From a virus (lineage: Duplodnaviria; Caudoviricetes), in the IMG/VR virus record IMGVR_UViG_3300037067_027643, positions 64,001-128,000 of that record: a stretch of 64,000 bases of DNA. One strand, 5' to 3'. A program made the translations under genes and the position numbers. The notes under the pieces were generated by a model. The model ran no database searches. It saw only the letters and a program-made list of their open reading frames with translations, and was not told where the DNA came from. Positions 36,256-49,447 of the stretch are shown piece after piece (the first letter of the stretch is position 1; every line of letters starts with the position of its first letter).

Positions 36256-37932
36256 TTATACGTAGTTTAAGTGGGTTACCACTAGCTTTCCGAAAAATTC
36301 GGGGCGAACTATTTTTTTTGCATATCTCGTAAGTACACCTTTTCTCGGCGTGAAGTTAGTACTATCATATACTAATGGTGTCATAATCAATGGAACATAA
36401 GGACAAAAAACGGCACCGCACTCTAAGAACTGACTACCTCTAAATCCCATCAATATGATATTTTCTTTCATATAAGGATTTTTGTAAACAGTAAAGCGAT
36501 TATTCAATAAACCTACTTTTTGTACTCCCATTGCAAATTGCATTTGGTTTCCATCAGTATCAGCTGCATAACCAGGAATTGATTCGATTATAGTAGCAAT
36601 ATCAGGAGAGCAAACCATAAAGTTAGCACCACCACGCATTGTTTTTTGGTGAATCTTGTTGCTGATTTTTTGCAATTTAGTACCTAAAGTTTGGAACCAA
36701 GTCTGTTGAGTATATTTAAGAGCGTATCCACTTTGTAAATCTTGACTTGTAAAGTTAGATTCACCATTAGTAGTTTGTCCTGTGTGTACAGTTCCTATTT
36801 TAGCTGACCAATAATCAGTTGTGATAGCGTTAAGAATCAACATATCTAAGATTTCTAAGTCAATTTCCATTGAAATATATTCACTCAACATACTTGTTAA
36901 TTCTGCTTCAGCATCAATTGAATGGTAAGCGTTTAAGTCCTGTGCAAATTCAGGAGTCCATACTGCTTTTAACTTTTTAGTTTTAGCAACAATTGGTTCA
37001 CTTCTCAATGATACGTTTATTTCTGGGATATCTAATGCGTTAGCACCTACTGATGTACCAGGAGCGTATTTATCGGGACCAGTTGTTCCACTTCCCCATG
37101 CAGGATCACCTTGAGCTTGGAAATCACCTCTATCGTAAGCTAATGGAGCTTTGCTATATTTTACCAATACTGTTGAAGCACTACCACTACACATAAAGGT
37201 TACATAACGAGTTGAAGCTGCTCCAGCACTTGTTACAGGCATTGTATTAGCTGGGTAATAAGCTTCGATACCACTACCACTAATATAGAAACTTCTTACA
37301 CCTTCTACATCGTGATTGGTTGTATTCATATCTACAGTTACTCTTTTCATTTCATCTGCTGCTACAGAAGCACTTAATGGAGCTGAATAGTTACAATCTG
37401 CCCAAGAAGCTGAAGTAATAGTTGTTGATAAACTTGCTGTATAGTCGTTAGTACTATATCCAAATCTACCTGCACCATATAAACCTTGTTCTGCATCAAA
37501 TGTTTGGTTAGTAATACCAAATACTGAATTGTTTTGTTCGTAAGTAGTATTAGTAGTATTGAAACCTGGTTGATCAGTTCCATATTTGAAATCTAAGTAG
37601 AATACAAGTCCACTAGGTAAGTTCATTGGTTGTACTGATACGAAGTCTTTAGCTGCTATTTCTGCAAAGATACGTCTTACTAATGGTAAAGCTACTCCTG
37701 ACCATTCTTCTGCACCTGTTGCTGTTCCTGTTTGTGATACTTCACTGATTAACTGTCTTGCTTGGTTTTCTAACAAAATAGCCATTCCATCTCTTTCGTA
37801 ATCACTTTTAAGACCGTCTAACAGTCCTGTTTTTTCCCATTTCTGGTTCAGAGCAATACTATCATTACGCATATTTTTATACGTAGATTTTATTTGTCCC
37901 TCTCCTATCAAATCACTAAATTTTTTATTCAT
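36256..37932 (-). CDS. Major capsid protein (T4 gp23-like)
   Basis: LLENQA, LPLVRR, VSVQPMNLPSGLVFYL, KLKAVWTPEFAQDLNAYHSIDAEAEL, CPYVPL, FTPRKGVLTRY. Confidence 0.95.
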   Translation of the reverse strand: MNKKFSDLIGEGQIKSTYKNMRNDSIALNQKWEKTGLLDGLKSDYERDGMAILLENQARQLISEVSQTGTATGAEEWSGVALPLVRRIFAEIAAKDFVSVQPMNLPSGLVFYLDFKYGTDQPGFNTTNTTYEQNNSVFGITNQTFDAEQGLYGAGRFGYSTNDYTASLSTTITSASWADCNYSAPLSASVAADEMKRVTVDMNTTNHDVEGVRSFYISGSGIEAYYPANTMPVTSAGAASTRYVTFMCSGSASTVLVKYSKAPLAYDRGDFQAQGDPAWGSGTTGPDKYAPGTSVGANALDIPEINVSLRSEPIVAKTKKLKAVWTPEFAQDLNAYHSIDAEAELTSMLSEYISMEIDLEILDMLILNAITTDYWSAKIGTVHTGQTTNGESNFTSQDLQSGYALKYTQQTWFQTLGTKLQKISNKIHQKTMRGGANFMVCSPDIATIIESIPGYAADTDGNQMQFAMGVQKVGLLNNRFTVYKNPYMKENIILMGFRGSQFLECGAVFCPYVPLIMTPLVYDSTNFTPRKGVLTRYAKKIVRPEFFGKLVVTHLNYV

Positions 37933-37951
37933 AATTTTTTAATCTCCTTCT

Positions 37952-39094
37952 TTATTTTTTATTGTTTGTTTGTTTATTATCATTACTTATGTTTGCTAAT
38001 TTTTGAAAGCGATCTCTTATTTCATTACTTTCTAAAATAACTTTTTTCTTGTTAACTTGGGTATTACCGACTATTCCTGATGCAATACTTTCGGTTAATC
38101 TTTTTGTTGTTCCGTTTACTTCTTTTTTAACTGATGTGGATTTTAAACTTTCTACTAATGTTACATATACTAATTTTACTTCTCTTAAACTGTTAGCTTT
38201 ATCCATATTATCAATTATCTTTAGTTTTTGAGATTCTGATAATTTTTCATATTGTCTAAATAATTTGTTAGCATATAAAAGTTTACTATTTAACAAGTTA
38301 ACTTCATTCATAGTAGTTTTTAATGACTTAATAACTTTGATAGCTTCTGATAAGTTTTTTTCAGCTCTTGCTGTTTTTTTCTTTTGTTCTTCTAATTCGT
38401 AATTGTTATATTCGTCATTAGGTTCATCTTCTTCTTTCATATCAGCTACTAATTCATCAATGTTGATGTCTTCATCATCGTCATCTGTTTTAGGTTCTTC
38501 TGCTGGAATTTCTTCTTCCTCTGTAGTTGTTTCTTTAGGTTCATCTTCTACTGGATCAGTATCAACTGGAATGTCATCTTCATCATTGTCTTCGTTTTCC
38601 ATTTTGATTTCGTCATCTTCTGTAGCTGGGTTTTCATCACCTTCAAGTTCTTTTAAGATTTCTTCCAATTCTTTTTCATCTTCTGATTTTTCATCTTCTT
38701 CTTGAACTGGTTCATCTTCTGTTTTAGGTTCGTCGTCTTCGATGTCAATATCTTTGTCATCTTCTTCTGATACTACTGGTTCTTCAGTATCAATTTTTTC
38801 TCCGTCTTCTTCTTTTACTGTTTGATCATCGTCGGCTGTAGATTTTACTTCGTCTTCTCCATCATCTTCCATTCCTTCTTCGTTAGTTGCTACTGGTTCG
38901 TCTTCGACTTCGATATTTTCGTCGTCTTCTCCACCTTCAACTTCTTGTTTAATTTTTTCACTAAACATTGCCTGTAATTTAGGATTGAATGCATCTGCTA
39001 TTGCTATTTTTGCATTTTTTAATGCTACTTCTTTAATCTGTTTAGCATCTGCAATTGCTTCGTCAAACAATGTTTTGTTTGTTGTTTTTGCCAT
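37952..39094 (-). CDS. Prohead scaffold/core protein (gp22-like)
   Basis: Highly acidic centre, coiled-coil C-terminus, directly upstream of MCP. Confidence 0.8.
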   Translation of the reverse strand: MAKTTNKTLFDEAIADAKQIKEVALKNAKIAIADAFNPKLQAMFSEKIKQEVEGGEDDENIEVEDEPVATNEEGMEDDGEDEVKSTADDDQTVKEEDGEKIDTEEPVVSEEDDKDIDIEDDEPKTEDEPVQEEDEKSEDEKELEEILKELEGDENPATEDDEIKMENEDNDEDDIPVDTDPVEDEPKETTTEEEEIPAEEPKTDDDDEDINIDELVADMKEEDEPNDEYNNYELEEQKKKTARAEKNLSEAIKVIKSLKTTMNEVNLLNSKLLYANKLFRQYEKLSESQKLKIIDNMDKANSLREVKLVYVTLVESLKSTSVKKEVNGTTKRLTESIASGIVGNTQVNKKKVILESNEIRDRFQKLANISNDNKQTNNKK

Positions 39095-48558: not shown

Positions 48559-48577
48559 GTTATAATATTTCTCCTTA

Positions 48578-49447
48578 TTATTTACTAATATTCTTTAATT
48601 CATCTATCAACTGATAAAATTTTAATAAGGCTACCACAGTTGAATCTTTAATCTGAGTCTTACTTTCTTTAATTAAATTGAGCTGGTTAAGTGTTTCTTT
48701 TAATTTTATCTTAATTACTTTATCATCTATCGTCTTAGCTACCTCTACCACCTGTTTTTTAATCTTTGGAATCTCTTTACAAATAAATTCTTTTAACTTT
48801 ACATTATCACTAATATTATTGATATATTCTCTTAATAGATTCTTCTGTTCATTATTTAAATTTTGATATTTCTTATTAAATATTTCCAACATTTTCTTAT
48901 ATGAAAACAACTGCATATCCCTATCTAATGAATCAAATTCTTTTGTTGTATTTTCTTTTATTGTTTCGACTGAGCTTTTATTCTTTTTATTATTTGTAAT
49001 ATGTTCTATCAAAGTAAATCTACTATCTACTATTTCTGTCGCTGGAACATTACCGATACAACTTTCAAATAACTGATATATAGAAGCTAGTTCTTTGTAA
49101 TTATTTATTTTAGCTTTTACAAATTCATTTATCTTATAACATTCATTAATTTTTTTAACTAAATTATATTTCTGTTTTCTTAGTTCATTGTTATTTAATG
49201 ATTTTCTTTGAGATATAACAGTTTCTATTAAATGAACAGCTTTATCTTGATTTCCTTCGTATTTAGTTTGAAGCAAAGTATTGTATAAATAATACTCTTT
49301 ACTAAGTTCAGAATTCTTTTTAAAAAATTCAGATAATATAGTTGTTGCTTTACATTGTACACCACTAAGTGTATCCGAAGCAATTTGTCTTACAAGTAAC
49401 TCAAATAAAATACCTGTGTTTTTAAATTTACTGTGCTTATTCTTCAT
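48578..49447 (-). CDS. Head-cluster hypothetical protein
   Basis: 289-aa ORF (KHSKFKNTGILFELL) directly after portal, ACTATTTATA motif upstream. Confidence 0.65.
   Translation of the reverse strand: MKNKHSKFKNTGILFELLVRQIASDTLSGVQCKATTILSEFFKKNSELSKEYYLYNTLLQTKYEGNQDKAVHLIETVISQRKSLNNNELRKQKYNLVKKINECYKINEFVKAKINNYKELASIYQLFESCIGNVPATEIVDSRFTLIEHITNNKKNKSSVETIKENTTKEFDSLDRDMQLFSYKKMLEIFNKKYQNLNNEQKNLLREYINNISDNVKLKEFICKEIPKIKKQVVEVAKTIDDKVIKIKLKETLNQLNLIKESKTQIKDSTVVALLKFYQLIDELKNISK

What the first reader, a model, noticed from the sequence alone, without database searches (positions are those of the whole stretch)
36256..49447. Phage bS21 amid Shine-Dalgarno-bearing late genes in a host phylum that largely ignores SD
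Seen: a bS21 homolog (40724-41053) sits in the head cluster. AAGGAG/AGGA/GGAG precedes MCP, scaffold, protease, tail tube (6364) and most neighbours (starts 40708, 41331, 42009, 43115, 43514, 44294, 44899, 45598, 45975, 47992, 48558, 49447). The early-type small genes I checked, and bS21 itself, have only A/T-rich upstream regions. Established: Bacteroidota ribosomes sequester the anti-SD using bS21/bS18/bS6, and phage bS21 genes near structural genes are known. Inference: the phage bS21 replaces the host protein, frees the anti-SD and selectively boosts SD-led late mRNAs.
Basis: partly seen in the sequence, partly recalled or inferred. Interest (0 to 1): 0.72.

Follow-up and report, generated by a model that had tools for sequence, protein, structure and literature searches.

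The report
Phage ribosomal protein tied to Shine-Dalgarno
A giant phage of Bacteroidota, whose ribosomes normally ignore the Shine-Dalgarno start signal, puts that signal on its high-copy particle genes and carries its own version of ribosomal protein bS21, which helps hide the signal's reader; across related phages the gene and the signal are mostly kept or lost together, which suggests a testable way phages retune host ribosomes.

Summary
Observation confirmed and extended. The window is part of a 286-kb T4-like jumbo phage with Bacteroidota promoters (30/129 leaders vs 0.3 shuffled) and Bacteroidota-type A-rich start regions. 40724-41053(-) is bS21 with a 37-residue, basic, low-confidence N-terminal extension. 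17 of 20 genes of its late operon carry a short SD; bS21 does not. Genome-wide, SD marks 36/92 late-promoter genes but 12/251 early ones (chance about 10). New: among relatives, capsid genes have an SD in 76/81 loci with a co-oriented bS21, 2/78 without bS21, and 0/5 with the antisense host-like bS21 described by Chen 2022. Five of six independent contrasts agree, none oppose (sign p 0.06; Pagel p about 1e-5, optimistic). No other co-segregating gene was found. The better guess is an active gain linked to the N-extension. Host shifts partly confound the comparison, and nothing is shown biochemically. Phage bS21 is known; I found no paper on the SD link.

The parts
40724..41053 (-). Phage bS21, 109 aa, co-oriented with head genes; SD-less
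   Evidence: PF01165 8e-12; PDB bS21 hits; AF2 helices 49-63, 65-73, 78-108
40943..41053 (-). N-terminal extension, residues 1-37, Lys-rich, low confidence in the model
   Evidence: 37 residues longer than host numbering; pLDDT about 52 over residues 1-40; same start in a 93% homolog
40781..40783 (-). Phe91 codon, the position of F. johnsoniae Tyr54 (stacks on A1534)
   Evidence: alignment to 7jil; features table
41054..41076 (-). A/T-rich, SD-less start region of bS21
36256..37932 (-). Major capsid protein (gp23-like); SD AAGGAG at 37944-37949
   Evidence: PF07068 4e-75
37952..39094 (-). Putative scaffold/prohead core (acidic, by position; no family hit); SD AAGGAG at 39105-39110
   Evidence: conserved next to the capsid gene in nearly all loci
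39309..40013 (-). SprT-like metalloprotease, no SD, not found in the other loci
   Evidence: PF10263 2e-7
40019..40708 (-). 229-aa ORF; SD AGGA at 40717-40720
41077..45975 (-). Nine small/medium late ORFs (starts 41331, 42009, 43115, 43514, 44294, 44899, 45275, 45598, 45975); eight have SDs, 45275 has none
45993..46670 (-). Prohead protease; SD AAAAAGGA at 46680-46687
   Evidence: PF03420 9e-34
46696..48558 (-). Four late ORFs (starts 47031, 47330, 47992, 48558), all with GGA/GGAG/AAGGAG
48578..49447 (-). Conserved 289-aa head-cluster gene, first of the operon; SD AAAGGA at 49459-49464
49489..49498 (-). Putative late promoter ACTATTTATA heading the operon that holds bS21
   Evidence: motif 27 vs 8.1 shuffled; precedes portal, sheath and other structural genes; function inferred
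49515..53150 (-). Portal protein with two inteins; late promoter at 53201-53210; no SD
   Evidence: PF07230, PF14890 two stretches
6360..6869 (+). Tail tube gene (6378-6869) with SD AAAAAGGAG at 6360-6368
   Evidence: PHROG 4542
34990..35021 (-). Example of a Bacteroidota housekeeping promoter (TTTG ... TAnnTTTG) heading SD-less early-type genes

Best explanation
The phage makes an SD-less late mRNA segment for bS21 that ordinary host ribosomes can read. The N-extended phage bS21 then exchanges into host 30S subunits and turns an SD-blind ribosome into one that uses short SDs. This favours the SD-tagged, high-copy late proteins (capsid, scaffold, protease, tube, sheath, small head-cluster proteins, ssb) over SD-less host and early mRNAs, while low-copy parts such as the portal stay SD-less. 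Because the Tyr54 position is often kept and the SDs are short, this is more likely an active gain (the basic N-extension and a changed first helix stabilising a short SD duplex or loosening the tail pocket) than a passive loss of the Tyr54 stack. Shown: the anatomy, the class bias and the co-variation. Inferred: exchange, ASD engagement and selective translation.
For: Host signature: TTTG-N17-23-TAnnTTTG in 30/129 leaders vs 0.33 shuffled, no sigma70 type; A peaks at -3, -5/-6, -12/-13 as in F. johnsoniae (PMC7797042). Class bias 36/92 vs 12/251. Capsid SD in 76/81 co-oriented-bS21 loci, 2/78 bS21-less, 0/5 antisense-type; after thinning to 76% identity 37/41, 1/26, 0/2. The nearest relatives L001, L002 and L269 lack both traits. 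Orthologs of this phage's SD genes carry an SD in 30/45 cases in bS21+ records and 2/44 in bS21- records. Whole records: 0-7% SD without bS21 (low-GC records), 13-61% with. Early/late contrast also in G052 (3/29 vs 56/155) and G025 (1/12 vs 48/173). Independent contrasts 5 same, 0 opposite, 1 tie; still 5 pairs, none opposite, after dropping genome-wide-SD lineages. Pagel LR 28, nominal p 1e-5. No other gene co-segregated. Cultured Flavobacterium phage immuto_2-6A gave no bS21 hit and has SD-less head genes. N-extension >=12 residues: capsid SD 73/75; shorter or antisense: 1/7, plus SD-less LR756508. bS21 is easily exchanged (PMC9578407).
Against: The sign test cannot reach 0.05 with five informative pairs (p 0.0625), and Pagel's test is anti-conservative. 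Hosts of the metagenomic relatives are unknown, so host shifts could move both traits; one subgroup has SDs genome-wide and an SD-led bS21 (G029, G030, G056; cultured Mel-JY01, listed on Microcystis). Exceptions: L016/L179 and L483/L484 have bS21 but an SD only on the scaffold; L220/L224 (GC 0.40-0.53) have SDs without bS21; weak scaffold SDs occur in bS21-less phages. Most bS21-less records are fragments (only G031 is complete). Short AGGA SDs did nothing on bS21-mutant F. johnsoniae ribosomes. The aromatic residue at 54 is kept. The N-extension link rests on few short-type cases.
Confidence: 0.58

Rival explanations
1. Host confound: the SD-bearing lineages infect hosts whose ribosomes already read SDs partly (non-Flavobacteriales Bacteroidota or other phyla). 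SDs simply tune highly expressed genes, and bS21 is an unrelated supplement that happens to suit the same hosts.
For: The SD-led-bS21 subgroup has SDs genome-wide. Several Bacteroidota classes keep SDs on some ribosomal genes (PMC7797042; PMC9976891). Groundwater/landfill source suggests a non-Flavobacteriales host (inference).
Against: In this phage 251 early genes, including promoter-proximal ones, have SDs only at chance level. Sister phages with the same host promoter motif (G001, G002, G033) lose both traits. The association holds after removing genome-wide-SD lineages.
Confidence: 0.2
2. One reading: phage bS21 merely fails to hold the 16S tail (like Y54A or dC), passively freeing the anti-SD.
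For: 36 of 80 SD-less co-oriented phage bS21s lack an aromatic at 54, against Tyr in 68/78 host sequences; their C-terminal part is more basic (+5.5 vs +2.7). This protein has Phe-Tyr where hosts have Tyr-Ile.
Against: SD use is independent of residue 54. Y54A, dC and depletion did not help weak AGGA SDs, and dC ribosomes were worse on weak-SD mRNA.
Confidence: 0.12
3. The GGA(G) motif is not read by 16S rRNA but by a protein (the bS21 extension itself, a GGA-binding regulator, or a RegB-like nuclease), or the ASD is freed by another phage product such as a protease acting on host bS21/bS18.
For: The invariant core is only GGA with a preceding A. McNutt et al. speculated about a phage protease; an SprT-like gene lies two genes from bS21.
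Against: Spacing of 6-12 nt and AAGGAG extensions match the verified tail ACACCUCCUUUCU. SprT is absent from the other bS21+ loci and no other gene co-segregated (BLAST-level sensitivity).
Confidence: 0.1

Closest known systems
bS21-encoding freshwater Bacteroidetes phages of Chen et al. 2022 (PMC9723584)
   Same: T4-like jumbo phage, bS21 within the portal-protease-capsid cluster, Bacteroidota host, aromatic residue at 54, proposed late translational role.
   Different: Their bS21 is antisense and host-like; here it is co-oriented, 37 residues longer at the N-terminus and about 40-50% identical to hosts. Chen et al. inferred that the ASD stays blocked and, in the results and discussion I read, did not examine SDs. 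Loci of that layout found here have SD-less capsid, scaffold and protease genes.
N-extended phage rpS21 of huge phages (Al-Shayeb et al. 2020, PMC7162821)
   Same: Basic N-terminal extension; proposed to favour initiation on phage mRNA.
   Different: No mRNA element was named for S21; their SD analysis concerned S1. Here a candidate cis-element and its co-variation are shown.
bS21 autoregulation in Flavobacterium johnsoniae (Jha 2021 PMC7797042; McNutt 2023 PMC9976891)
   Same: bS21 status gates SD use in an otherwise SD-less transcriptome.
   Different: Host logic: absence of bS21 plus one very long SD on rpsU. Phage logic: a replacement bS21, dozens of short SDs on late genes, and an SD-less bS21 gene.
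Immutovirus (Flavobacterium phage vB_FspM_immuto_2-6A)
   Same: Cultured relative, capsid 52% identical, same head-gene order and TATTTAT late motif.
   Different: 160 kb, no bS21 hit, SD-less head genes: a natural negative control.

Membership tests
bS21 (PF01165) | Profile match above the curated cut-off | tested here: met
   45.1 bits vs 27
bS21 (PF01165) | Helical core with R..F.KPS..KR motif | tested here: met
bS21 (PF01165) | Assembles into the 30S subunit | not testable with these tools
   shown for another phage bS21 in E. coli, as cited in PMC9723584
Bacteroidia-type ASD-sequestering bS21 | Tyr54 (aromatic stack on A1534) and Ile55 | tested here: inconclusive
   Phe and Tyr at these positions: aromatic kept, identity lost
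Bacteroidia-type ASD-sequestering bS21 | Weakly basic C-terminal part | tested here: not met
   net +5 vs host mean +2.7 in a Flavobacterium-rich set
Bacteroidia-type ASD-sequestering bS21 | Extended SD upstream of its own gene | tested here: not met
   -2.3 vs host median -20.7
Chen 2022 bS21 phage clades a-e | bS21 within about five genes of portal/protease/capsid | tested here: met
   fourth gene upstream of the capsid gene
Chen 2022 bS21 phage clades a-e | bS21 on the strand opposite the structural genes | tested here: not met
   same strand; antisense-type loci form a distant capsid clade
Chen 2022 bS21 phage clades a-e | TerL similarity above about 70% to those clades | not tested
   their sequences were not at hand
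Bacteroidota-infecting phage | Host housekeeping promoter TTTG/TAnnTTTG | tested here: met
   30/129 vs 0.33
Bacteroidota-infecting phage | SD-less, A(-3,-6,-12,-13) start regions | tested here: met
Bacteroidota-infecting phage | Direct host link (spacer or isolate) | not testable with these tools
   no spacer search possible; class of host unknown

The most novel reading that the evidence does not exclude
A widespread family of Bacteroidota jumbo phages runs a semi-orthogonal translation system: a phage-made, N-extended bS21 switches on an anti-SD that the host keeps silent, and short SDs act as an address label for high-copy virion proteins. It would be a natural phage-built specialized ribosome with a defined mRNA code, distinct from a second, host-like antisense bS21 class that does something else.
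Probability: 0.5. Interest if true: 0.88.

Novelty: new variant of a known kind. Interest (0 to 1): 0.76.

Why it matters
bS21 is the commonest phage ribosomal protein, and since 2019 it has been proposed to redirect ribosomes to phage mRNA, without a named mRNA feature to select on. This locus and its relatives supply one, with built-in controls (bS21-less sisters, the antisense class, a cultured Immutovirus), and reduce the question to a reporter assay in an existing F. johnsoniae system. If true, it also gives a one-gene switch for SD-dependent expression in Bacteroidota, where standard ribosome-binding sites do not work.

Tried and rejected
Loss of Tyr54 as the determinant: rejected. SprT-like protease as a family-wide partner: not found in other loci. 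'All late genes have an SD': wrong, 39% do. 'Any phage bS21 goes with SD': wrong. Host class from bS21 similarity: uninformative, 33-51% identity across 117/121 Bacteroidota genomes; genome scans with the phage protein failed or found nothing; atlas hits were viral clusters only. The search for homologous proteins returned one relative, whose contig was not on record. Expression: no RNA holder listed. The AF2 model only shows helices and a low-confidence N-terminus; no complex was predicted, as the question concerns RNA. Ten literature searches found no paper linking phage bS21 to late-gene SDs; subscription papers are not covered. Method limits: my own ORF caller (first ATG, SD-blind) misplaces some starts (e.g. 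L124, L499, L052); promoter classes come from motifs, and three SD-led genes at 31666, 31989 and 32578 were scored early though late motifs lie near them; the restricted tree dropped more loci than intended through an id-mapping shortcut; the counts of 81/78 mix thinned and unthinned loci.
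Full report
Setting. The window is bases 64001-128000 of a 285,744-base virus record, 25% G+C, held by groundwater and landfill metagenomes. It has a gp23-like capsid, prohead protease and portal, tail tube and sheath and 22 tRNAs: a T4-like jumbo phage. The closest cultured relatives by capsid are Mel-JY01 (55%) and Flavobacterium Immutovirus (52%).

The observation. 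ORF 40724-41053(-) is bS21; F. johnsoniae bS21 (7jil) is among its two best solved relatives. It lies in a 20-gene minus-strand run from 49447 to the capsid gene, headed by a putative late promoter at 49489-49498. Seventeen of the 20 genes have AGGA, AAGGAG or GGAG 6-12 nt before the ATG; bS21, 44916-45275 and the SprT gene do not. To avoid circularity I called starts without regard to SD and classed genes by promoter motif. SD (dG <= -4) occurs in 36/92 late, 10/110 middle and 12/251 early genes; the early count equals the shuffle expectation of 10, and Fisher p is 4e-14. A mock window upstream removes the late signal (3 vs 25). The SD set is a subset of late genes: capsid, scaffold, protease, tube, sheath and many small head-cluster ORFs, plus ssb and DnaB; portal and most large baseplate/fibre-like genes lack it. 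That this follows copy number is my inference from T4 biology.

The host. The bipartite Bacteroidota promoter TTTG-N17-23-TAnnTTTG (consensus from my own knowledge) heads 30 of 129 free leaders against 0.33 in shuffles; the sigma70 type occurs zero times. Start regions peak in A at -3, -5/-6 and -12/-13, the F. johnsoniae pattern (PMC7797042). The phylum is therefore well supported; the class is not known.

The comparative test. I collected head loci from IMG/VR by capsid or bS21 similarity. Capsid genes have an SD in 76/81 loci with a co-oriented bS21, in 2/78 without bS21 and in 0/5 with an antisense bS21; after thinning, 37/41, 1/26 and 0/2. This phage's three nearest relatives lack both traits. 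In long records SD frequency is 0-7% without bS21 (low-GC records) and 13-61% with it. Orthologs of this phage's SD genes keep the SD in 30/45 cases in bS21+ records and 2/44 in bS21- records. On the capsid tree there are six supported independent contrasts: five agree, one ties, none oppose (p 0.0625, the floor for five pairs). A Pagel model prefers dependence (LR 28, nominal p 1e-5, optimistic) with repeated joint loss. A search for any other gene shared by bS21+ and absent from bS21- records returned none. The cultured Flavobacterium phage, with no bS21 hit, has SD-less head genes, as predicted. Absence of bS21 was checked in whole records for a subset, of which only one is complete.

Three regimes. 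(a) No bS21, or the 64-residue antisense host-like bS21 of the layout Chen et al. described: SD-less throughout. (b) Co-oriented, N-extended, itself SD-less bS21: SDs on a late subset only, as here, in G052 and in G025. (c) SD-led bS21 with SDs genome-wide (G029, G030, G056, Mel-JY01), probably on SD-using hosts. Group (c) shows that host effects are real; dropping it leaves five contrasts and none opposite. Exceptions remain: L016, L484 and LR756508 have bS21 without a capsid SD; L220 and L224 have SDs without bS21.

Mechanism. In F. johnsoniae, Tyr54 of bS21 stacks on A1534 and steers the 16S tail into a bS18/bS6 pocket. Here that position is Phe91. Among N-extended phage proteins the capsid SD is present with an aromatic at 54 (40/42) or without (33/33), so loss of the stack is not the determinant. 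Published reporters show that a weak AGGA SD gains nothing when bS21 is truncated, mutated or depleted, and the phage SDs are weak: at most about -10 against -20.7 for host rpsU with the verified tail. Passive release is thus unlikely to suffice. What does track SD use is the N-extension (73/75 vs 1/7), together with a changed first helix and a more basic C-terminal part. Chen et al. place the N-terminal helix over the ASD where mRNA binds. I therefore favour an active gain: the phage protein replaces host bS21, which exchanges easily, and stabilises short SD duplexes. The SD-less bS21 gene fits, since it must first be read by unmodified ribosomes; host rpsU has the opposite arrangement. These steps are inferred, not shown. 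I put 0.58 on this, 0.2 on a host confound, 0.12 on passive release and 0.1 on a non-rRNA reader or another factor.

Relation to known work. Phage bS21 near head genes, its late expression and a guessed role in selective translation are published, as are N-extensions and the host autoregulation. In ten searches I found no paper that names the SD as the selected feature, shows the co-variation, or separates the two bS21 classes; closed-access papers were not searchable. This phage is not a member of the Chen clades (strand criterion not met), though it works in the same arena.

Verdict. New variant of a known kind; interest 0.76, mainly because it makes an open question directly testable.

Noticed in passing
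window starts 41331, 45275, 45975, 47031, 47330, 47992, 48558, 32578, 31277, 31989 (-); also G000 57097, 63303, 130026: At least 13 small, unrelated ORFs share an N-terminal peptide (about MKxxELExLIENxVxxILxE) ending in LxE, like the T4 prohead-protease site; possibly a capsid-targeting, cleaved leader of internal head proteins. Ten of 13 are SD-led. Similar leaders occur in relatives (L016, LR756508).
   Followed up: partly
window 49515-53150 (-): Portal protein of 1211 aa with two intein stretches; the relative L001 has a 1196-aa portal.
   Followed up: partly
window 49489-49498, 53201-53210 and about 45 sites in G000: Putative late promoter ACTATTTATA, enriched in leaders of most relatives including Immutovirus; it differs from the T4 TATAAATA.
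   Followed up: partly
window 36146, 14048 region; 14 sites in G000: A third motif, TAATTTTGTATATT without the -33 TTTG, precedes replication genes (DnaB, SbcCD-like): a possible middle promoter.
   Followed up: partly
window 25199-29581 (-): 22 tRNA genes in three blocks, including Ile(TAT), separated by endonuclease-like ORFs.
   Followed up: no
G000 40928-45356 (L390): Ribonucleotide reductase large subunit in two pieces with a 419-aa ORF between them.
   Followed up: no
L007, L276-L347 scaffold genes: The scaffold gene often keeps a weak AGGA-like motif even in bS21-less, otherwise SD-less phages; unexplained.
   Followed up: no
L553 (PP395634, Mel-JY01): A cultured relative listed on Microcystis has the same head layout with an SD-led bS21 and SDs on nearly all genes in the stretch read; its host assignment deserves checking.
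   Followed up: partly
window 20898-22283, 23413-24195, 4324-4830 (-): RtcB RNA ligase, UvdE UV endonuclease and a macro-domain protein.
   Followed up: no
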